DNA from: a virus
Lineage: Duplodnaviria; Heunggongvirae; Uroviricota; Caudoviricetes
Virus record (IMG/VR): IMGVR_UViG_2703718854_000005
Length of the DNA: 21,181 nt
Strand: one strand, 5' to 3'
A program made the translations under genes and the position numbers. Each line of letters opens with the position of its first letter. Position 1 is the first letter of the stretch. The notes beneath the pieces are model-generated. The model was given only the letters and a program-made list of their open reading frames with translations, was not told the origin of the DNA and searched no databases. Of the stretch, positions 1,659 through 19,154 are shown piece by piece.

Positions 1659-4130
1659 TTAAGAATCAGCCTGACTCGGGATCAGTTTTTGCCAGATAAC
1701 TGAAACGTATTTTGCCTGGTAACGGGCGTCATCAAGTGCATTATGGCGCTCACCTTCGAATGGAATAGCCGTTCTGGCATCGAAGTCTATGGCTTTCCCC
1801 AGCTCAACGATTGTGCGTACATCGCGATCGTTGTAGTAACGCCACGGGCAGGGGATCCCCTGCCGTTCGTATGAACGGCGCAAAATCGTGTTGTCGAAGT
1901 TGGCTCCATTTCCCCAAACCTGAACAAAAAATTCACCGGAGTTTTCGTCGATAAATTCTCGCAATTGTAACAGTGCATCATCTAACGGGATTTCATCGGT
2001 CATAATGGCAGATTGCGCTTCGCGTGATTGCTTAAGCCACCATTTAATGGTGTCCCGATCAATGACTCCGCCAGCAGTTTCCAGATCGATAGTCTTACTA
2101 AATTCCGGTCCCATATCTCCGGTTTGCGGATCGAAAAATATTGCACCTATTGAGATGATCGGGGCATCAGGATTTTTTCCCATGGTTTCAAGGTCGATCA
2201 TTAGATGGTCACACGTCCTGCTGGTGGATGTGATTTCGTGATGACCGTTCACCTTAATTGGGTGATCTGCCGTCTCGCCAGTTTCATTATCGCTATTGTG
2301 ATGCTGATTGCCGCCAGTGTTCTCCTTGTGTGGATGTTCAGCGCCTTCCATTTCCTCCGGATCATCTTCCTGAACTTCAACCTGATACTCTTCATCGAAT
2401 GTTTCTTGGTATGTTGCGTCGCCCATCACCGCGCCACAATCAGGGCAGTTGCCGCCGCCGGTCTGACCGCAGGCGGTGCAGACTTTTTCCACTTCCTGTT
2501 GCGCTACTGGTTCAGGCTGTTTCGTTTCTGGCTCGTTTTGTAACGCATTTGGACTGTTTTGTTCCGCTTTTTGGTAGTTCCGTTCCGATTCATGCTGGTT
2601 CTGGTTCACAGAATCGCGGGTCTGGAGCCCCTTAACCCATTTCGGATCATTCGGGTCACTAATCCCTTCAACAAATTCACCACGTGATGCAGCAAGCAAC
2701 TTATCGGCGTCAGGCTGGCTGATATTGGCTGCCTGCATAATTTTGTTTACTTCGTCAGCGGTAACTTTTATCGGCTCTGGTTGTTCTGAATCTTCAGCGG
2801 TATCTACATTTTGCGGTAAGCCCGTGTATGTGCCATTTTTTCGGGCAAAATATTCTTCTTTTGTGATTTCAGTGGCGCCAGCAGCCAGTGCCTTATCCAG
2901 ACCAGAGAGTTTGTTTGCGCGACCGTATTTTTCTCCGTCCTTATCTGCGAAGAGGAAATAGAACGGCCCCTCACGCTCTACAGATGGTTCAGCTTCCGGC
3001 GCGGTTTCATTTTTTGGGATATCAGATACCTCAGTTTCCACTGCATCAGTTTGTGTTTCTGATGACTGGAGAACATCAACAGTGCCCAGGTCTGTTTCTT
3101 CATTCTCAAACACGCCCTTTGTCGTCAGGTATTCGCAGATATATTTGTTCAGTGCTACGGGATCTTTGTGAATGTCGATCGGACGCTCACGGACAAGGCC
3201 AAAAATAGTTTGGCGGTCGTAGCGAAGGGCATCAGGCTGTTTGCGCATTGATGCCGAGATACGCTTCCAGTCTTCGCGGTCGTTGTCGATAACTTCTTTT
3301 TTTGCCCAGCGATGGATGCTGCCGTCAATGTTTCCGGCATCCACATCACTAGGCCAGAGAGCGTAGGCCAGTTCGTCATCCAGTGTTTTCCATGTCTGCT
3401 TGTATTCGCGATGAATGGCAGCAATGACCGGGCTGATTTTTCCTGTTGAATTTTCAGTGTACTGTTGATTGGCTCTGGCGCGGGCGAGATCAACAACAGA
3501 CGTGTATTTTCCGGTTTCCTTGCGTTCACCTTCGCGACGTTTTTTCCAGATGCGCATCTCTGCCTGAATTTCGGGCCATTTAGCACCAGGAATACATTTA
3601 TGCTTAACCCACCCAATGGCGTGCAACTTAAGCTCCGGATACATGGCGTTAACTTCTGGCATTTTCATCAACGCTTCAACGATATGTCCGTCGAATGTTG
3701 CCATGTCTTCCTGCAACAATTCCTGTGCGCTAATAACCATATCAACGGTGATGTTTTCACATGTGTCGAACTTAACCATGACAGCGTTCTGTACTTCAGG
3801 GGCCAGCTTGTCAAAAGTGACGTTCATCGGATCGGATTCAGTCTCAACCGGGACAAAAGAAGCAGACTCCTCATCCCAGCGGTTTTCCTGCATATATTCA
3901 GCATCCCATGAATCGAGGGCAGGGCGGGGTATGCCAGGTTTATCCTCGCAGACAATAAATTTATAAGCGCAGTCCTGAGCAGCCGGATAATGTTCCAGGA
4001 ATTGCCAGTGAAATTTTGCTCGAGCACGGCGTTCGTCGCCAGCTTCAATGGCTGTGGCTACAGCCACAGCGCCTTCTTCCCTTGTTGCCAGTTCGTCAGG
4101 AATAGCGGCGCAAATAAAGACTTTACTCAT
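1659..4130 (-). CDS. Large phage exonuclease with C-terminal DnaQ-like (DEDDh) 3'-5' exonuclease domain
   Basis: Long ORF; the track start is 4166 but the ATG at 4130 (MSKVF...) has a GAGG RBS. C-terminal motifs: Exo I IDLETMG, Exo II WGNGANFD, Exo III HNALDDARY. Central CxxC...CxxC zinc-ribbon-like segment and acidic low-complexity linker. Confidence 0.8.
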   Translation of the reverse strand: MSKVFICAAIPDELATREEGAVAVATAIEAGDERRARAKFHWQFLEHYPAAQDCAYKFIVCEDKPGIPRPALDSWDAEYMQENRWDEESASFVPVETESDPMNVTFDKLAPEVQNAVMVKFDTCENITVDMVISAQELLQEDMATFDGHIVEALMKMPEVNAMYPELKLHAIGWVKHKCIPGAKWPEIQAEMRIWKKRREGERKETGKYTSVVDLARARANQQYTENSTGKISPVIAAIHREYKQTWKTLDDELAYALWPSDVDAGNIDGSIHRWAKKEVIDNDREDWKRISASMRKQPDALRYDRQTIFGLVRERPIDIHKDPVALNKYICEYLTTKGVFENEETDLGTVDVLQSSETQTDAVETEVSDIPKNETAPEAEPSVEREGPFYFLFADKDGEKYGRANKLSGLDKALAAGATEITKEEYFARKNGTYTGLPQNVDTAEDSEQPEPIKVTADEVNKIMQAANISQPDADKLLAASRGEFVEGISDPNDPKWVKGLQTRDSVNQNQHESERNYQKAEQNSPNALQNEPETKQPEPVAQQEVEKVCTACGQTGGGNCPDCGAVMGDATYQETFDEEYQVEVQEDDPEEMEGAEHPHKENTGGNQHHNSDNETGETADHPIKVNGHHEITSTSRTCDHLMIDLETMGKNPDAPIISIGAIFFDPQTGDMGPEFSKTIDLETAGGVIDRDTIKWWLKQSREAQSAIMTDEIPLDDALLQLREFIDENSGEFFVQVWGNGANFDNTILRRSYERQGIPCPWRYYNDRDVRTIVELGKAIDFDARTAIPFEGERHNALDDARYQAKYVSVIWQKLIPSQADS

Positions 4131-4364
4131 TTGTTTTAACCTCATGACAGATTTAAGGATGAACAAATCCCTGCCATTGCTGGCATATAAGAATGAAACC
4201 GGATATTTATTACGGAACTGTTTTAAAGACCTGCCGGGATTTCGATATTATCCTGGTGAATAACTTTATCGACCGGGTACAGAGAATCCACCCATAACAC
4301 TGTTTTTGGTTTTAACTGTTCCGCGTGCGCTCAGCCGCATTCACCACATCACAAAATTCACTTT

Positions 4365-4422
4365 AAAAAGGGCGGCAGAGCAGTCACGGAGTAAAACTGA
4401 TACCGCCAAACGTCACCAGAAA
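4365..4422 (-). ncRNA. dicF: DicF small RNA (ftsZ-targeting sRNA of Qin-type prophages) with its terminator hairpin and U-tail
   Basis: Minus-strand sequence TTTCTGGTGACGTTTGGCGGTATCAGTTTTACTCCGTGACTGCTCTGCCGCCC followed by TTTTT matches DicF as I remember it. Lies downstream of ydfA-ydfB-ydfC as in the dicB operon. Confidence 0.85.
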
Positions 4423-4762
4423 ATTGATAACAGAGGGCGTTGCAGCGGGGTTGTCACTTAAGCGTATGGTCAACCTGACAACCCGGTGTCCTCAACGGGG
4501 AAGGAATAACCCCGCCATACTTACCGCCGCGCCATTTCGCGGGTTGCCACAACCGGAAGCGCACGGTCGACGAAAATTTAACGACAGGCTATCTATGAAC
4601 CAGCTACCTCGCCGTGCGCTTTCGCGTTATGGTCTGACTTTTCAGGGAAATATCCTTTCAGTAAACTGTCAGTTCCGGATGCGCACCCGTGTCCGGCGCA
4701 CGCACTCCACCTCACCCGTGGAGAACTCCTTAATTACTAACCTTAGCTTTGTTGATTAGCTA

Positions 4763-4981
4763 CTAACGCGGGTATGTAATCATTCTGGCAATGCTTAATG
4801 CCGCTGCTTTTTCCAGATTGGTGATATCCTGCTCCAGAGCGGACAGATTTTCAGCCTGCTTAGCCCTGGCTTCATTAGCCCATTTCAGATCCTGCGCTGC
4901 ATTAATTTTCTGGCGCATCCACTCATAAAGTTCATCATCGGTATAGTCTGGCGCGATGATGACGGGTTCTCGTTTCTGCAT
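4763..4981 (-). CDS. ydfC: YdfC-like small protein (dicB-operon protein)
   Basis: 72-aa ORF with a GAGGAA RBS, in operon position ydfA-ydfB-ydfC-dicF. Confidence 0.7.
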   Translation of the reverse strand: MQKREPVIIAPDYTDDELYEWMRQKINAAQDLKWANEARAKQAENLSALEQDITNLEKAAALSIARMITYPR

Positions 4982-5010
4982 ACTGATTCCTCGCGGTGCT
5001 GTTTCGCTTA

Positions 5011-5139
5011 TCAGCCGTTAGATTTTGCCGAACTGGAAAGCGCCTGTTTAAACTCACTGAAGCTGAGAGCTTCTTCGCCTTCGGCAAGGCCTTCGAAGTA
5101 TTCTTCGTAAGCCTTTTCCATGATTGTGTCGAAATCCAT
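5011..5139 (-). CDS. ydfB: YdfB-like small acidic protein (42 aa)
   Basis: Not in the ORF track (below 60 aa). Manual translation of the minus strand gives MDFDTIMEKAYEEYFEGLAEGEEALSFSEFKQALSSSAKSNG. AGGTGA RBS overlaps the stop of the upstream gene. Size and position match ydfB. Confidence 0.6.
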   Translation of the reverse strand: MDFDTIMEKAYEEYFEGLAEGEEALSFSEFKQALSSSAKSNG

Positions 5140-5140
5140 A

Positions 5141-5296
5141 TCACTCACCTGAGTTTCTTTCCAGCCAGCGACGGGCACCATTTTCGGTTTTAAACGTTTT
5201 GCTTTTGGTATACGTCATTGCGGTGAACGTGCCGTCCTGGTTTGGAAACACGCCGTACACCAGAGATTCGTTGTTGCCAAGATCGATAGTATCCAT
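5141..5296 (-). CDS. ydfA: YdfA-like small protein (51 aa)
   Basis: The track ORF 5141..5374 begins at a TTG; the internal ATG at 5296 has a GAGG RBS and gives the 51-aa product MDTIDLGNNESLVYGVFPNQDGTFTAMTYTKSKTFKTENGARRWLERNSGE. First gene of the dicB-type operon. Confidence 0.6.
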   Translation of the reverse strand: MDTIDLGNNESLVYGVFPNQDGTFTAMTYTKSKTFKTENGARRWLERNSGE

Positions 5297-5462
5297 GCTG
5301 ACCTCATTTCCCCTTAACGCTGGGGTAGCGGAACTGTTTGCTGAGAACACCGTGCGGTGTGTTGATGCAAACAAGATTAGCCATGACTAACATATCGGTC
5401 AAGTGATTTTGTATGCTATAGCTAACATAATTGATGTGGTAAAAGATAACTCATTGATGATG
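5297..5462 (-). promoter_or_regulatory. Promoter/operator region of the ydfA-ydfB-ydfC-dicF operon (DicA-repressed in Qin)
   Basis: Intergenic between the dicA stop and ydfA start. Contains the inverted repeat GATAAC-N11-GTTATC and a TGTTAGCTATAGCA-like element. Exact promoter elements not resolved. Confidence 0.4.
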
Positions 5463-5870
5463 TTATCTTTTATTTGTCCGCTGACGGGCTTTTAGTAATT
5501 CTTCAAAGAGTTTATTGAAGTTTTTTACTCGAGCTCGCATTTCGGCGAGCTGGGTATCCTGTTCTGATTCTGGCAGTGCATTAAACAGCTCAAGGAGCTC
5601 TAGTTCTTTGGGGGATAAGGCAACTGGCTTCTCAACAGGTGGTGTTGGTTGCTTGTCTTCATCGCCAAATAGAATCCATGTTGGTGAGCATTGCAATACT
5701 TTGCTGAGGGCAAAAAGGTTCTTCCCTGTAGGTTCACTATCACCCCGTTCCCATTGTGATACAGACACATGGGAGATTTTCAGGGCTTTAGCAAGAGACC
5801 TTTGGGTGTGTTTGAGGTTTTTCCGACGATACCTGATGCGTTCGCCGATAGTTAAATTTTTTGTTTCCAT
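5463..5870 (-). CDS. dicA: DicA repressor (HTH, cI/C2-like)
   Basis: 135-aa ORF; sequence matches DicA as I remember it (METKNLTIGERIRYRRKNLKHTQRSLAKALKISHVSVSQWERGDSEPTGKNLF...). Divergent from dicC. Confidence 0.9.
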   Translation of the reverse strand: METKNLTIGERIRYRRKNLKHTQRSLAKALKISHVSVSQWERGDSEPTGKNLFALSKVLQCSPTWILFGDEDKQPTPPVEKPVALSPKELELLELFNALPESEQDTQLAEMRARVKNFNKLFEELLKARQRTNKR

Positions 5871-5953
5871 AGTTAGCTAATGCTAAATCGTATTGACTAT
5901 GTTTTTGTTAACATCTATCTTGTTAGTTATGACTAACAATAAAGGTGTTTTAA
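5871..5953. promoter_or_regulatory. Divergent dicA/dicC promoter-operator region
   Basis: Perfect inverted repeat TTGTTAGT-tatg-ACTAACAA at 5920..5939, plus palindromes TTAGCTAA (5873..5880) and TGTTAACA. Sits between divergent repressor genes. Confidence 0.6.
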
Positions 5954-6298
5954 ATGCTTAAAACTGACGCTCTTTTGTATTTCGGTTCAAAAACAAAACT
6001 TGCACAAGCAGCAGGTATTCGTTTGGCTTCGCTTTATAGCTGGAAAGGGGATTTAGTTCCCGAAGGTCGCGCGATGCGTCTAGCAGGGAGGATTTGGCGT
6101 GTGCGCAGTGGATCTGGGGGCGGATCGTGGGTCTCTACGAACAGGCAGCCAGTGATGATGGCGAGATCATGCGACCAAAAGAGCCTAACTGGACTGCCTG
6201 GGCCAATGACGTGCGCACAATGCGGATGCTGGATGGCAGAAGCCACAGACAAATTTGCGAAATGTTTGGTCGGGTTCAGCGAGATCCATTCTGGGTAA
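5954..6298 (+). CDS. dicC: DicC-like Cro-type repressor; 3' extent uncertain
   Basis: The first ~43 aa (MLKTDALLYFGSKTKLAQAAGIRLASLYSWKGDLVPEGRAMRL) match DicC as I remember it. The rest of the frame is G/S/W/C-rich and looks non-protein-like, and overlaps an alternative-frame ORF. The end coordinate is just the first stop in frame. Confidence 0.5.
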   Translation: MLKTDALLYFGSKTKLAQAAGIRLASLYSWKGDLVPEGRAMRLAGRIWRVRSGSGGGSWVSTNRQPVMMARSCDQKSLTGLPGPMTCAQCGCWMAEATDKFAKCLVGFSEIHSG

Positions 6299-6475: not shown

Positions 6476-6898
6476 GTGGCAAAAGTTTTTACACAAGAAG
6501 AGCGGGAAAAAATTAAATGGCAGGTGGTGGAACTCGTGCGCCAGAGCGGCCGTGAGACGTTACGGCAACTGGAAGCTAAAACAGGTGCGACTAGATATCT
6601 GATGAGCGTTCTTGCCAGAGAGCTGGTAGCCAGTGGCGATGTATACAACTCCGGCTACGGGTTATTCCCCTCTGAACAGGCGCGTAAGGACTGGCAAAAC
6701 GCCCGCAAAAAACTCTCGAGGGCAAAGGTGAAGAAACCTGCTGTGGTTGATCCGGACCTTATCTGGTCATCACCTGACGGAGAAATACGTCGCTACGACA
6801 GTCGCCTAAACATAATCTGTCGCGAGTGCCGGAAGAGCGAAGTTATGCAGCGCATACTGGCTTTCTATCAGGGTAATTTTCAGGACGTGGCGCAGTGA
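6476..6898 (+). CDS. Hypothetical phage early-region protein (140 aa)
   Basis: GTG start preceded by an AAGGGGG RBS. Stop overlaps the start of the next ORF (GTGA), indicating translational coupling. Confidence 0.6.
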   Translation: MAKVFTQEEREKIKWQVVELVRQSGRETLRQLEAKTGATRYLMSVLARELVASGDVYNSGYGLFPSEQARKDWQNARKKLSRAKVKKPAVVDPDLIWSSPDGEIRRYDSRLNIICRECRKSEVMQRILAFYQGNFQDVAQ

Positions 6899-7251
6899 GT
6901 GCACCGGCAACCATTCTTGATATGTGCTGTGGCAGCCGCATGTTCTGGTTCGATAAGTCTGACGAACGGGCGATATTCAGCGATATCAGAAAAGAAGGAT
7001 ACACATTACGCAATGGGAGACGCTTGATTATCAGCCCTGACATTATCGCAGATTTTCGTGCATTATCATTTGCAGACGCATCTTTTTCGATGGTTGTATT
7101 AGACCCTCCGCATCTTGAGAGTGTTGGTGATAACGCCTGGATGGGAAAGAAATATGGACGGCTGAATAAAGATGCCTGGCGTGATGATTCGCGACAGAGA
7201 TTTAAAGAAGCCTTTCGGGTGTTGAGGCCGCACGGCGTTCTGATTTTTTAA
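6895..7251 (+). pseudogene. SAM-dependent DNA methyltransferase-like fragment (C-terminally truncated)
   Basis: 118-aa ORF with ILDMCCGSR (motif I-like), VVLDPPH (DPPY-type motif IV) and RVLRPHGVLIF (RVLKPGG-like). Ends right after this motif and both other frames stop within a few codons. Too short for a complete methyltransferase. Confidence 0.45.
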
Positions 7252-8583: not shown

Positions 8584-8889
8584 ATACAGCGAACTCCATT
8601 GGTTTAGTTGGATATTTACTGTGCTGGACAAAAACGGTTTGCGGGGAAATCTTAGTTAAGTAGAATGACTGCGGGTGCTTGAGGCTATCTGCCTCGGGCA
8701 TGGACACCAACGGCAGATAGAGAAAAGCCCCAGTTAACATTACGCGTCCTGCAAGACGCTTAACATTAATCTGAGGCCAATTTCATGCTAGACACATGTA
8801 GGTTAGCCTCTTACGTGCCGAAAGGCACGGAGAAGCAGGCTATTGTTAACACCAAGCTGTAATGTCCCCTTTGAACCATTCTAAAATGT

Positions 8890-8917: not shown

Positions 8918-10231
8918 ATGATCAAAGAGACTGTTACGATGAGTCATAAGGAACTCCACCGACTTCAGATTATTCAGGAACAAGCTGCGGCACGCATTGG
9001 CATTTCTATTCGGCAGGTTAAACGTCTGGTGCAACGGTATAGAAATGAAGGGCCTTCTGGTCTGGTTTCCCACCGACGTGGAAAGCGTCCTAATAATTCC
9101 TTTTCTACTGAATTCAGAGCAACAGTAATTTCACTCCTCAAAGGCCGTTACGCTGATTTTGGACCTACGTTTGCGTGCGAAAAATTGCGCGAGATACACG
9201 GTTTATCTTTATCCGTTGAAACTCTCAGAAAGTGGATGATAGAAGAGGGGTTATGGCGTGAACGCCGTCGTAAAATTGCCCGTATATATCAACGCCGCAT
9301 GCGACGACCATCTTACGGTGAACTGATCCAGATTGATGGCTCACCTCATGACTGGTTTGAAAATCGAGGCCCCAGATGTACACTGATCGTATTCATTGAT
9401 GATGCCACCAGTGCGTTGATGGCGTTGCGTTTTGTGCCTGCTGAAACAACCCGGGCTTACATGGAAACCCTCCGGGGTTACCTTAATGATCATGGCGTAC
9501 CGCTCGCTCTCTACTCTGATAGACACAGTATATTCAGGGTAAATAACCCAGAGCGGGAAGGTGAGCTGACCCAGTTCACTCGTGCGATAAAGACACTGGG
9601 CATCGAGCCAATCCATGCCAACAGCCCGCAGGCAAAAGGGCGGGTAGAGCGCGCCAATCAGACACTACAGGACAGGCTGGTCAAAGAAATGCGGCTTCAG
9701 AATATCAGTGATATTGAAACAGCAAATGCATGGTTGCCGACCTTTATTGAAGCCTATAACAACCGGTTCGCTACGTCGCCTCGTACTACTGATAATGCTC
9801 ATCTTGATGTGCACCATTCTGAAGAGGAACTGGGTTATATCTTCAGCCTACAGGCGAAGCGCGTTCTGTCTAAAAATCTCACTTTCCAGTACAAAAGCAG
9901 TGCGTTTCAGGTACGCAGTGAGGGCCGGGGATATCGACTTAGGCATTCGGTTGTTACTGTATGCGAGAACTTTGACGGTGAAATTAACGTTCTGTATGAC
10001 GGGAAAGCGCTGGGCTGGGAAAAGTATGTTGATGGCCCGGAGCCTATACCACTGGATGATGAAAAGAGTGTCCATGAACGAGTGGATAATGCCCGTATTG
10101 ATTTACGCTCAAAATACTATGTTAAACCTAAAGCTGACCATCCCTGGCTTACGCGCCGAACGCAAAGTCATCAGCAAGTTAAGCCCCCGAAGTTACCTAA
10201 AAAGAAGCCTGATCCCGATAAAAAAGATTGA
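8918..10231 (+). CDS. DDE transposase with retroviral-integrase-like (rve) core and N-terminal HTH; IS481/ISNCY-like, family tentative
   Basis: 437-aa ORF. N-terminal HTH-like region (IGISIRQVKRLVQRY), rve-type motifs (IQIDGSPHDW ... YSDRHSIF ... HANSPQAKGRVERANQTLQDRL), K-rich C-terminal tail. No istB-like partner downstream. Confidence 0.85.
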   Translation: MIKETVTMSHKELHRLQIIQEQAAARIGISIRQVKRLVQRYRNEGPSGLVSHRRGKRPNNSFSTEFRATVISLLKGRYADFGPTFACEKLREIHGLSLSVETLRKWMIEEGLWRERRRKIARIYQRRMRRPSYGELIQIDGSPHDWFENRGPRCTLIVFIDDATSALMALRFVPAETTRAYMETLRGYLNDHGVPLALYSDRHSIFRVNNPEREGELTQFTRAIKTLGIEPIHANSPQAKGRVERANQTLQDRLVKEMRLQNISDIETANAWLPTFIEAYNNRFATSPRTTDNAHLDVHHSEEELGYIFSLQAKRVLSKNLTFQYKSSAFQVRSEGRGYRLRHSVVTVCENFDGEINVLYDGKALGWEKYVDGPEPIPLDDEKSVHERVDNARIDLRSKYYVKPKADHPWLTRRTQSHQQVKPPKLPKKKPDPDKKD

Positions 10232-12502: not shown

Positions 12503-12754
12503 ATGATGAACATCGAAGAACTGCGTAAAATTTTTTGTGAAGATGGCCTCTATGCTGTGTGCGTTGAAAATGGAAATCTTGTTAGTCATTACCGCATTAT
12601 GTGTTTGCGAAAGAATGGGGCTGCGTTAATTAATTTTGTGGATGCTCGGGTCACGGACGGATTTATCTTGCGCGAAGGTGAGTTTGTCACTTCATTACAG
12701 GCATTGAAAGAGATCGGAATAAAAGCTGGCTTTTCTGCTTTTTCAGGAGAATAA
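12503..12754 (+). CDS. rem: Rem-like protein (Qin prophage)
   Basis: 83-aa ORF; size and position between hokD and ydfU match rem. Confidence 0.7.
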   Translation: MMNIEELRKIFCEDGLYAVCVENGNLVSHYRIMCLRKNGAALINFVDARVTDGFILREGEFVTSLQALKEIGIKAGFSAFSGE

Positions 12755-15550: not shown

Positions 15551-15850
15551 AAAAATTCCTTAATACTGATAACTTGGCGCACTATACACACGTTCCTGAA
15601 GAAAGCTATAGTTTTTTGATGGGGTTGAAGATGGCTGGATGTCTAAAATAAACATTGCTTCATATGTTCAACTATGCGTTAATGATTGCGTCGGTTTGAA
15701 GAACAGACGATATACGAAGTAGTTTACTAAAGCAGTTCTCATTTCAGGTGTTATTCACTTATTCCTTCTTTGAGTCTCTCCAATTAAGTACGAAGTCGTT
15801 TCTGTTATGCAAACCATTTATGCCGAAAGGCTCAAGTTAAGGAATGTAGA

Positions 15851-16066
15851 ATGTCAAATAAAATGACTGGTTTAGTAAAATGGTTTAACGCTGATAAAGG
15901 TTTCGGCTTTATTTCTCCTGTTGATGGTAGTAAAGATGTGTTTGTGCATTTTTCTGCGATTCAGAATGATAATTATCGAACCTTATTTGAAGGTCAAAAG
16001 GTTACCTTCTCTATAGAGAGTGGTGCTAAAGGTCCTGCAGCAGCAAATGTCATCATTACTGATTAA
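15851..16066 (+). CDS. cspB: Cold-shock protein CspB
   Basis: 71-aa ORF with the CspA-family RNP motifs (KGFGFI, VFVHF). Matches CspB as I remember it; preceded by a long AT-rich 5' leader. Confidence 0.85.
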
Positions 16067-16177
16067 AATTCATCGCTCGTCTGTATACGATAACGAAGAA
16101 GGCTGATGCCTGAGTAGAGATACGGACAGAGTAGTGAATATTGGATCTCTTTAATAAAAAGTAAGGAGGTCCAATAC

Positions 16178-18375: not shown

Positions 18376-18737
18376 GGTAATATTAAATCGGAACATTTAC
18401 ATCGCGGAATGTAAAATTTAAATAAAAAGGACTCTTCCATGAGCCAAAATTCCTGAAATCTTAAGGGTAAGATAAAAGGTCTTAATCAGAATGACACGTT
18501 TTATTAATAAATAAAGCTATTCTTTCATTGCTGTGTTTTTCTTTACAAAAGTAATCCTTGCTATGGGTGGTTAATCATGCGTTAATGGTGTTCTGGTTTG
18601 TTACAAATTTATCTGAAGCAGTCATTGTTATAATTTTATTATTTGTACCTCTTGAGATTTCCTTGTTGGTTTTTCTCTCTGATATTTTTTTTCGGACCAT
18701 TCTGCCCAAGGGCTAATTTCTTCAAAAGGTAATAATT

Positions 18738-18950
18738 ATGTCTAACAAAATGACTGGTTTAGTGAAATGGTTTAACCCTGAAAAAGGTTTTGGTTTCATC
18801 ACGCCGAAAGATGGCAGCAAAGATGTGTTTGTCCATTTCTCAGCAATTCAGAGCAACGATTTCAAAACATTAACTGAGAATCAGGAAGTTGAATTTGGTA
18901 TTGAGAACGGACCTAAAGGTCCTGCCGCTGTTCATGTAGTGGCGCTTTGA
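18738..18950 (+). CDS. cspI: Cold-shock protein CspI
   Basis: 70-aa [73 protein letters not shown] matches CspI as I remember it. Confidence 0.85.
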
Positions 18951-19154
18951 GGTAGACAATATTACAAACCATATTCACTTTAGATGCCCGTGTTGTCATG
19001 GTTCCCAGTATAGAACATCATCTTTTGATGTTTCTGACATGAATCCTTTCGGGGCAAAATGTATCTTTTGTAAATCAATGATGATTACATTTGATAATAT
19101 TTCACAATACTTAAATGCCAGCCGTCTGTCGTTGGATTTAAAAAAGTGAAAATG

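What the first reader, a model, noticed from the sequence alone, without database searches (positions are those of the whole stretch)
4170..4422. DicF sRNA retained but no dicB/ydfD downstream
In K-12 Qin as I recall it, dicF is followed immediately by the cell-division inhibitor gene dicB. Here the roughly 190 bp after the DicF terminator contains no ORF longer than about 24 codons and leads straight into the exonuclease gene. DicF would then be the only division-inhibitory product of this operon in this prophage variant.
Basis: partly seen in the sequence, partly recalled or inferred. Interest (0 to 1): 0.55.

Follow-up and report, generated by a model that had tools for sequence, protein, structure and literature searches.

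The report
Qin prophage keeps DicF, lost dicB
This is an ordinary defective Qin-type prophage of E. coli in which a private 404-bp deletion removed the toxic genes dicB and most of ydfD but left the DicF small RNA untouched; the one unusual point is that the deletion ends at a spot where many independent deletions in related prophages also end.

Summary
DicF lies at 4370-4422 on the minus strand (Rfam 76.7 bits) and is identical to K-12 DicF. The next 239 nt run straight to the exonuclease start (4130) and hold no dicB.

Alignment to K-12 and to a 99.9%-identical Qin-type prophage shows a clean 404-bp deletion. The junction is a shared TA at 4278-4279. The deletion removed 82 nt of spacer, all of dicB, and ydfD codons 1-45. 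Eighteen ydfD codons remain. No DicB or Kil homologue occurs anywhere in the 21-kb window.

dicA, the dicBp region and ydfA, ydfB and ydfC encode proteins identical to K-12, so DicF is the only known division inhibitor left in this operon. A second, 1200-bp deletion truncates the Cro-like dicC. K-12 data suggest this would lower induction.

The junction is absent from 5,426 complete E. coli genomes and from three other collections. Orphan DicF is not unique, though. Eighteen genomes have a different deletion (dicB through rspA) that starts at the same TA, and other prophages carry kil in place of dicB.

At least 14 distinct deletion junctions share this breakpoint. It is a deletion hot spot of unknown cause. 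The finding is a minor new variant of a well-known locus.

The parts
4370..4422 (-). DicF sRNA (53 nt), identical to K-12 DicF
   Evidence: Rfam RF00039, 76.7 bits, full length. Exact match in the K-12 locus L144 at 3015.
4365..4407 (-). DicF intrinsic terminator: hairpin 4371-4407 plus U-run 4365-4369
   Evidence: RNA fold -15.9 kcal/mol, z -2.2. PMC5069750 states that Rho-independent termination gives the 53-nt 3' end.
4423..4762 (-). ydfC-dicF untranslated leader. In K-12 it holds the RNase III site (5' end of the 190-nt species) and the RNase E site (5' end of the 53-nt species).
   Evidence: One SNP against K-12 (4614) across 4280-4762. Processing sites are from PMC10448788.
4280..4369 (-). 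The 90 nt of the dicF-dicB spacer that are retained
   Evidence: 100% identical to L002 and K-12.
4342..4361 (-). Orphaned 5' arm (GTGAATTTTGTGATGTGGTG) of a 20-bp long-range stem. Its 3' arm, just before the dicB ribosome-binding site, is deleted.
   Evidence: The stem is predicted in the intact reference as DNA and as RNA (z -3.8 and -4.65). The right arm is absent from the window. The window's own spacer fold is not significant (z -0.6).
4278..4279 (.). Junction of the 404-bp deletion: a TA shared by both parent sites. Operon strand reads ...GGATTCTCTG TA CCCGGTCGATAAAG...
   Evidence: The deleted DNA is K-12 locus 3160-3563, equal to L002 4780-5183.
4223..4279 (-). ydfD remnant: codons 46-63 plus the stop codon (YPVDKVIHQDNIEIPAGL*). 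It has no start codon of its own.
   Evidence: Intact YdfD is needed for lysis (PMC8835842).
4131..4222 (-). Native ydfD-exonuclease spacer
   Evidence: 100% identical to K-12.
1659..4130 (-). Exonuclease gene (823 aa; YdfE_N, YdfE_C and Rv2179c-like domains), now 239 nt downstream of DicF
4763..4981 (-). ydfC
   Evidence: Protein identical to K-12.
5011..5139 (-). ydfB
   Evidence: Protein identical to K-12.
5141..5296 (-). ydfA, first gene of the operon
   Evidence: Protein identical to K-12.
5297..5462 (-). dicA-ydfA intergenic region that holds dicBp in K-12
   Evidence: No difference from K-12 in this stretch. The promoter assignment comes from PMC10448788, not from a test here.
5463..5870 (-). 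dicA, repressor of dicBp, intact
   Evidence: Protein identical to K-12; one synonymous SNP at 5703.
5954..6298 (+). dicC' : DicC codons 1-43 (5954-6082) run out of frame into the remains of the next gene
   Evidence: The exact 114-aa product is encoded on one public contig, Logan SRR36113055.
6081..6082 (.). Junction (shared TA) of a second, 1200-bp deletion. It removed the dicC 3' end, ydaT and about 206 codons of the replication-region gene.
12503..12754 (+). rem, the antirepressor that relieves DicA repression in K-12, retained
   Evidence: The ORF corresponds to rem in L002. Function is from PMC10448788.

Best explanation
The window is the immunity and early-left region of a Qin-type defective lambdoid prophage of E. 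coli. The prophage is integrated next to rspB.

Its dicBF operon normally reads dicBp, ydfA, ydfB, ydfC, dicF, dicB, ydfD, exonuclease. Here it has suffered a 404-bp deletion between two sites that share a TA plus imperfect flanking homology (CTGTA-TCCGG against CTGTTA-CCCGG). The deletion removed the last 82 nt of the dicF-dicB spacer, all of dicB, and ydfD codons 1-45.

DicF, its terminator, its 5' processing region, the promoter region and the repressor gene dicA are unchanged.

Shown here:
- the anatomy of the locus;
- the identity to K-12;
- the absence of DicB and Kil from the window.

Inferred from K-12 work:
- When DicA repression is lifted (Rem, stress, stationary phase), the operon still yields DicF. 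DicF represses ftsZ, xylR and pykA mRNAs by Hfq-dependent pairing.
- It no longer yields the more toxic MinC-activating DicB, with its ManYZ-linked lambda resistance, or the YdfD lysis protein.
- Read-through past the DicF terminator now enters the exonuclease gene directly.
- The RNase III stem thought to give the 72-nt DicF 3' end cannot form.
- Because dicC is also truncated, induction is probably rarer than in K-12.

The deletion most likely arose by microhomology-mediated illegitimate recombination, for example template switching. It happened at a spot in the spacer that is a recurrent deletion endpoint.
For: - DicF: Rfam; identity to K-12, terminator fold.
- Deletion anatomy. The flanks are 100% identical to L002. 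The window equals L002 minus 404 bp and minus 1200 bp, plus 14 SNPs and one 1-nt indel.
- ydfD remnant and absence of DicB. Absence of Kil.
- The canonical arrangement is the norm. DicF occurs in 3,975 and dicB in 4,198 of 5,426 complete genomes, with similar copy counts of 6,701 and 7,025. All 10 contexts shown for the exact exonuclease protein have DicB and DUF1482/YdfD upstream. 3,779 genomes carry the whole dicF-dicB-ydfD block.
- DicA, YdfA, YdfB and YdfC are identical to K-12.
- Functional predictions: PMC5069750 (an induced operon with dicF but without dicB is far less toxic; 53-nt and 72-nt forms), PMC10448788 (RNase III and RNase E processing, Rem, the role of DicC), PMC6832061 (DicB gives lambda resistance), PMC8835842 (intact YdfD is required for lysis).
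- Long-range stem.
- Recurrent breakpoint.
Against: - The junction was found in no other sequence: 5,426 complete E. coli genomes, GTDB species representatives, JGI metagenomes and IMG/VR. It rests on this one assembly, and no reads were available to check it.
- Only the second deletion has independent support, from the Logan contig.
- No expression data exist for this strain.
- The rest of the genome is unseen, so dicB may be present in another prophage.
- The RNase III role of the long stem is my inference from the predicted structure and the reported 72-nt end. It is not a mapped site.
Confidence: 0.85

Rival explanations
1. The missing 404 bp is an assembly or sequencing artefact, or a change that arose in laboratory culture, and not a feature of a natural population.
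For: The junction is unique among all collections searched. The closest relatives are 99.9% identical and all carry dicB.
Against: - There is no repeat that an assembler would collapse. Only a TA and imperfect homology flank the gap.
- The second private deletion of the same window is seen independently in a public read-set assembly.
- The junction has the same form as 14 other natural deletions at this site.
Confidence: 0.06
2. The prophage never had dicB. It is an alternative module arrangement in which dicF is natively followed by something else, as in prophages that carry kil.
For: Such arrangements exist. Phage Evi and UPEC 26-1 have DicF followed by (rha and) kil and then the exonuclease.
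Against: - The window retains the last 18 codons of ydfD in their native context.
- Both flanks are 100% identical to dicB-carrying relatives right up to the TA.
- No replacement DNA is present.
Confidence: 0.02
3. The loss was selected, not neutral decay. It removed the two most toxic products (DicB, YdfD) and disabled the DicC half of the switch, detoxifying the element while keeping the regulatory sRNA.
For: - dicB accounts for most of the operon's toxicity, and operons with dicF but without dicB are tolerated (PMC5069750).
- YdfD causes lysis (PMC8835842).
- Two independent private deletions in one 2-kb immunity region both hit switch or toxin genes.
Against: - dicB is retained in about 77% of complete genomes, often in several copies, so it is not generally counter-selected.
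- Deletions that keep dicB and lose dicF are much commoner at the same breakpoint. This points to mutational bias more than to selection for loss of dicB.
- A single isolate gives no frequency information.
Confidence: 0.3
4. The deletion was started by a site-specific event at the spacer TA, such as a nick, a replication stall at a folded structure or an enzyme-made break, and not by random slippage. The event is shared with all other deletions that end there.
For: - At least 14 distinct partner sequences are joined at the same 2-3 nt, in both directions.
- In a sample of 80 loci chosen only for encoding DicB, all 12 internal homology breaks within about 300 nt upstream of dicB fall at this site.
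- Several partners share only 2-4 nt with the site, too little for microhomology alone to fix the endpoint.
- The site lies inside a strongly structured spacer.
Against: - No nuclease, IS end, att-like core or terminal inverted repeat could be matched to the site (and inspection).
- Many partners do have extended imperfect homology to TATCCGGCGTTAA.
- Events may be fewer than junction types if some arose stepwise.
Confidence: 0.35

Closest known systems
dicBF operon of the Qin cryptic prophage, E. coli K-12 (dicA/dicC, ydfABC, dicF, dicB, ydfD, ydfE)
   Same: Same gene order and near-identical sequence. There are 2 SNPs in 1,805 nt from the spacer to dicC codon 43. DicF, DicA, YdfA, YdfB and YdfC are identical.
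   Different: - It lacks 404 bp: the spacer 3' end, dicB, and ydfD codons 1-45.
- dicC is truncated at codon 43.
- The exonuclease, xis and int genes are intact here, whereas K-12 has ydfE and intQ fragments interrupted by IS2.
Laboratory Plac-dicBF delta-dicB strains (the dicF-positive, dicB-negative construct of Balasubramanian et al. 2016; PR165 of Ragunathan and Vanderpool 2019)
   Same: The operon makes DicF but not DicB. Expected phenotype: much reduced toxicity and no lambda resistance (PMC5069750, PMC6832061).
   Different: - The laboratory alleles are precise ORF replacements that leave an FRT scar and keep ydfD and the spacer.
- The window's allele is scarless, also removes ydfD function and the 3' arm of the spacer stem, and sits behind the native DicA-repressed promoter.
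Natural dicF-positive deletion from dicB to rspA in E. coli D7 and 17 other complete genomes
   Same: DicF and ydfABC are kept and dicB is lost. The deletion starts at exactly the same spacer TA.
   Different: It is a much larger deletion that also removes ydfD, the exonuclease, xis, int, rspB and part of rspA. The partner site and the junction sequence are different.
Prophages and phages with DicF followed by Kil (phage Evi LR597642, UPEC 26-1)
   Same: DicF is present without DicB, upstream of the same type of exonuclease gene.
   Different: Those elements carry another FtsZ-directed division inhibitor (Kil, 73 aa) in the dicB slot. The window has no Kil homologue.

Membership tests
DicF sRNA (Rfam RF00039) | Covariance-model match at or above the gathering score over the full model | tested here: met
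   76.7 bits against 48, model positions 1-52/52, window 4370-4421 minus strand.
DicF sRNA (Rfam RF00039) | Sequence of the experimentally characterised K-12 DicF, including the 3' region that pairs with ftsZ and pykA and the 5' region that pairs with xylR | tested here: met
   The 53-nt sequence is found exactly in the K-12 BW25113 locus. The pairing regions are defined in PMC5069750.
DicF sRNA (Rfam RF00039) | Rho-independent terminator forming the 3' end | tested here: met
   G+C-rich hairpin plus U-run, -15.9 kcal/mol. It was missed by the simple terminator scan because of its large loop.
DicF sRNA (Rfam RF00039) | [quoted passage not shown] | not testable with these tools
   This needs RNA data from the source strain. 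The upstream leader and promoter region are sequence-identical to K-12 apart from one SNP.
Qin-type dicBF operon | DicA repressor gene and the dicBp region upstream of ydfA | tested here: met
   DicA is identical to K-12. The intergenic region 5297-5462 shows no difference from K-12.
Qin-type dicBF operon | ydfA-ydfB-ydfC upstream of dicF | tested here: met
   All three proteins are identical to K-12.
Qin-type dicBF operon | dicB (Pfam PF05358) downstream of dicF | tested here: not met
   tblastn with DicB against the whole window gives a best E of 0.92. The gene lies wholly inside the 404-bp gap.
Qin-type dicBF operon | Intact ydfD (DUF1482) overlapping the dicB stop codon | tested here: not met
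   Only codons 46-63 remain, and there is no start codon.
Qin-type dicBF operon | Intact Cro-like dicC divergent from dicA | tested here: not met
   DicC residues 1-43 of 76 remain, then the frame shifts into foreign sequence.
Kil-type division inhibitor in the dicB slot | A Kil homologue between dicF and the exonuclease, or elsewhere in the window | tested here: not met
   tblastn with two Kil proteins (UPEC 26-1, phage Evi) gives a best E of 0.48.

The most novel reading that the evidence does not exclude
The TA lies 90 nt downstream of DicF and 82 nt upstream of dicB (window 4278-4279). It may be a true fragile site, meaning a place of site-specific nicking or replication stalling inside the highly structured dicF-dicB spacer.

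On this reading the site repeatedly seeds one-ended deletions in either direction. It would be the main route by which Qin-type prophages uncouple dicF from dicB. The window would be the rare outcome that keeps dicF. Two further recurrent TA breakpoints, in dicC and in the replication-region gene, would belong to the same process.
Probability: 0.35. Interest if true: 0.55.

Novelty: new variant of a known kind. Interest (0 to 1): 0.3.

Why it matters
As it stands the finding matters little. DicF, DicB and YdfD are well studied, and operons with dicF but without dicB have been built and characterised in the laboratory. A private deletion in a cryptic prophage is normal decay.

It has two modest uses:
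- It is a natural, scarless allele behind the native DicA-controlled promoter that keeps dicF but lacks dicB and ydfD. It would let one ask what DicF alone contributes (ftsZ, xylR and pykA control) in a wild background. It would also test whether the spacer stem matters for DicF 3'-end formation.
- The breakpoint is shared by at least 14 different deletions. This points to an unrecognised hot spot that shapes which of the two division inhibitors a prophage keeps. If a defined cause were found (structure, nick or enzyme), it would interest people who work on illegitimate recombination and prophage domestication.

Tried and rejected
- **Junction searches.** I searched for junction-spanning 44-mers of both deletions in 5,426 complete E. 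coli genomes and found no match. I searched for the 38-mer of junction 1 in GTDB representatives and in JGI metagenomes, with none found. The pattern 'left flank followed by any base but T' gave none in IMG/VR, the metagenomes or GTDB. The source strain therefore could not be identified.
- **Exact-protein look-ups.** The 34-aa plus-strand ORF that spans junction 1 is not on record. The sense-strand junction ORF is too short to look up.
- **Replacement module or hidden DicB.** Six-frame searches with DicB and with Kil were negative.
- **Antisense ORFs at 4048-4263, 4193-4297 and 4306-4461 (plus strand).** They showed no similarity to DicB, and I treated them as chance ORFs.
- **Causes considered for the hot spot.**
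  - Similarity to the region between rspB and int that should hold the att core gave only 14-15 matches of 26, which is chance level.
  - The IS5 target YTAR does not fit GTAT.
  - I considered a mobile 404-bp cassette with TA duplication. Its ends show no terminal inverted repeats, and one end lies inside the conserved ydfD reading frame.
  - I considered integron-type GTTRRRY sites. The crossovers are not at GTT.
  - I considered REP-like sequence. Only an 8-nt resemblance (GCCGGATA) is present.
  - None of these was supported.
- **Promoter and terminator scan.** The scan of 4000-6100 gave counts no higher than shuffled sequence and missed the DicF terminator, so I did not use it as evidence.
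- **Literature.** No paper in the searchable library combines dicB, deletion and microhomology.

Full report
**What is in the sequence**

Rfam finds one DicF copy at window 4370-4421 on the minus strand. The match is full length and scores 76.7 bits against a gathering score of 48. The 53-nt sequence (4422..4370) occurs exactly in the K-12 BW25113 Qin locus. It ends in a G+C-rich hairpin and a U-run.

Reading on along the minus strand, 239 nt separate the DicF 3' end from the ATG (4130) of an 823-aa exonuclease gene. The longest sense ORFs in between are 25, 24 and 22 codons. tblastn with DicB finds nothing anywhere in the 21-kb window. YdfD matches only through its C-terminus.

**What the locus is**

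The whole window matches many E. coli chromosomes at 99.9% identity, but always in three or four pieces. In O55:H7 USDA5905 (locus L002) the region is annotated as follows:
- rspB | int, xis, exonuclease, ydfD, dicB, [dicF], ydfC, ydfB, ydfA, dicA | dicC, ydaT, a replication-region gene;
- then relBE, hokD, rem, ydfU, ydfT, cspB/F/I and the lysis genes.

This is a Qin-type lambdoid prophage.

A sequence made from L002 by removing 404 bp (L002 4780-5183) and 1200 bp (L002 6987-8186) reproduces the window with 14 SNPs and one 1-nt indel. Against K-12, window 4278-6082 differs at two positions (4614 and 5703). Window 3364-4279 is 100% identical to the K-12 ydfD tail and ydfE. DicA, YdfA, YdfB and YdfC are identical to the K-12 proteins.

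**The 404-bp deletion**

On the operon strand the intact sequence reads ...GGATTCTCTGTA|TCCGGCGTTAATTG... at a point 90 nt after DicF and 82 nt before the dicB ATG. Inside ydfD it reads ...GGTAACTGTTA|CCCGGTCGATAAAG.... The window reads ...GGATTCTCTGTA|CCCGGTCGATAAAG....

The crossover is in a shared TA (window 4278-4279), with imperfect homology around it. The lost DNA holds the last 82 nt of the spacer, all of dicB, and ydfD codons 1-45. Codons 46-63 remain without a start codon. Intact YdfD is needed for lysis (PMC8835842).

No foreign DNA, scar or repeat is present at the junction. That argues against engineering, module replacement or a collapsed repeat.

**How unusual it is**

The canonical arrangement is the rule:
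- DicF occurs in 3,975 of 5,426 complete E. coli genomes, at 6,701 places.
- dicB occurs in 4,198 genomes, at 7,025 places.
- 3,779 genomes carry the contiguous dicF-dicB-ydfD block.
- All ten contexts shown for the exact exonuclease protein have DicB and DUF1482/YdfD immediately upstream.

Junction-specific probes found the window's junction in none of these:
- the complete genomes;
- the GTDB species representatives;
- the JGI metagenome contigs;
- IMG/VR.

The allele is private to the source strain as far as these collections go.

Orphan DicF itself is not unique. Eighteen complete genomes, including E. coli D7, have a larger deletion that runs from the same spacer TA into rspA. Phage Evi and UPEC 26-1 carry kil in place of dicB downstream of DicF. 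Balasubramanian et al. already noted that parts of the dicBF locus occur in different prophage contexts (PMC5069750).

**Expected function (inferred from K-12 work, not tested here)**

dicBp is repressed by DicA. DicF accumulates in stationary phase. It is cut out of the polycistronic transcript by RNase III (5' end of a 190-nt species) and RNase E (53-nt species). Rem relieves the repression. DicC is needed for spontaneous switching and for strong stress induction (PMC10448788).

All upstream elements and rem (12503-12754) are retained in the window, so DicF should still be made when the operon is induced. The consequences of induction should differ in four ways:
- In K-12, deleting dicB largely relieves the growth inhibition caused by the induced operon (PMC5069750).
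- dicB is the main determinant of the ManYZ-linked resistance to lambda (PMC6832061).
- YdfD lysis is lost as well.
- The window has no Kil homologue, so DicF is the only known division inhibitor this operon can still produce.

**The spacer structure**

In intact relatives the ydfC-dicB spacer is strongly structured (RNA z -4.65; DNA z -3.8). A 20-bp long-range stem pairs GTGAAUUUUGUGAUGUGGUG, which starts 8 nt after the DicF hairpin, with CACUGCAUCACAAAAUUCA just before the dicB ribosome-binding site.

The reported 72-nt DicF, whose 3' end is made by RNase III (PMC5069750), would end inside the left arm. I therefore infer that this stem is the RNase III substrate.

The window keeps the left arm (4342-4361) and has lost the right arm. 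Its own spacer shows no significant fold (z -0.6). The 3'-extended isoform and any coupling of this stem to dicB translation should be gone. Read-through transcripts now run directly into the exonuclease gene.

**The second deletion**

At 6081-6082, again a shared TA, 1200 bp are missing. These comprise the dicC 3' end from codon 44, all of ydaT, and about 206 codons of the next gene. The resulting 114-aa DicC' fusion ORF is encoded, residue for residue, on one contig of a public read-set assembly, Logan SRR36113055. This shows that the allele exists outside this window. Loss of DicC should make dicBp induction rarer, by analogy with K-12 delta-dicC.

**A recurrent breakpoint**

While looking for other dicB-less copies I found that unrelated rearrangements end at the same spacer TA.

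Two deletions keep the dicF side:
- the window, whose partner is ydfD;
- the D7 type, whose partner is rspA.

Deletions that keep the dicB side have these partners:
- the ydaT interior (DJH_183sputum and IMG/VR loci);
- a site just downstream of dicA (GCA_022396765.1, L196, L264);
- the replication-region gene (MRE162, and L145/L282);
- at least seven further sequences.

In all there are 14 distinct partners.

In a sample of 80 IMG/VR loci chosen only because they encode DicB, 12 lose homology to K-12 at K-12-locus positions 3156-3158. No other internal break lies between position 2939 and dicB. Several partners share only TA or TATC with the site, so microhomology alone does not explain the fixed endpoint.

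Three further observations bear on local instability:
- A common allele differs by a 6-nt indel at the same spot.
- The window's second deletion joins two sites that are each used in another, independent deletion. The dicC site is used in L018, and the replication-gene site in L145.
- Deletions that keep dicB are much more frequent than those that keep dicF. None of the latter occurs in IMG/VR.

I could not identify a cause. The att region, IS targets, terminal repeats and integron-type sites do not fit (and inspection). A one-ended event at a fixed point would fit the pattern. Examples are template switching from a stall, or fork collapse at a nick within the folded spacer. This is conjecture.

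**Verdict**

The feature is a small, apparently private deletion derivative of one of the best-known prophage loci of E. coli. Laboratory equivalents have already been characterised. It rates low to moderate interest. The shared breakpoint is the only part that may repay further work.

Noticed in passing
window 4278-4279 (= K-12 locus L144 3158-3159; L002 5182-5183): This TA in the dicF-dicB spacer is a deletion hot spot. At least 14 different partner sequences are joined there, in both directions, in E. coli genomes and IMG/VR contigs. All 12 internal homology breaks near dicB in an unbiased 80-locus sample fall here. The cause is unknown.
   Followed up: partly
window 6081-6082, with ORF 5954-6298 (+): A second private deletion of 1200 bp truncates the Cro-like dicC at codon 43 and removes ydaT and about 206 codons of the replication-region gene. 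The exact 114-aa fusion product is encoded on Logan contig SRR36113055_375.
   Followed up: yes
window 6081-6084; L018 (rc) about 7826; L145/L282: Both parent sites of the second deletion are reused in independent deletions. The dicC TA is joined to the ISNCY transposase interior (window 9009) in GCA_000498235.1. The replication-gene TA is joined to the spacer hot spot in IMGVR_UViG_2875722834_000004.
   Followed up: partly
L002 5100-5270 (operon strand); left arm = window 4342-4361: A predicted 20-bp long-range stem brackets the dicF-dicB spacer in intact prophages. It lies next to the dicB ribosome-binding site and is a likely RNase III substrate for the 72-nt DicF 3' end. I know of no description of it in the papers read.
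   Followed up: partly
IMG/VR loci L145-L253 (e.g. L221, L238): A common allele reads GGATTA|TCCG instead of GGATTCTCTGTA|TCCG. This is a 6-nt indel exactly at the hot-spot position, present in about 75 of 109 loci returned by one pattern.
   Followed up: no
L003 2926-3147 (phage Evi); L006 3645-3866 (UPEC 26-1): In some phages and prophages DicF is followed by kil (73 aa, with or without rha) instead of dicB-ydfD, upstream of the same exonuclease. The slot holds alternative FtsZ inhibitors.
   Followed up: partly
L143 (E. coli LCP22S3_I2) 181-1543: An IS3-family element abuts ydfD, and only the last 43 nt of dicB are left. This is an IS-associated route to dicB loss, which here also removes dicF.
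   Followed up: no
window 8673-8844 (+): There is a strong Rfam sok/hok-leader match (104 bits) immediately upstream of the ISNCY transposase pseudogene (8918-10231). It lies in a stretch with no annotated hok gene in the closest relative and is possibly a hok/sok locus disrupted by the insertion.
   Followed up: no
window 15690-16082 (+) and 18592-18977 (+): Two cspA-type thermoregulator 5' leaders (159 and 113 bits) belong to the prophage cold-shock genes cspB and cspI.
   Followed up: no
window 19748: A single-nucleotide deletion relative to O55:H7 USDA5905 is the only indel besides the two large deletions. Its effect on the local ORFs was not examined.
   Followed up: no
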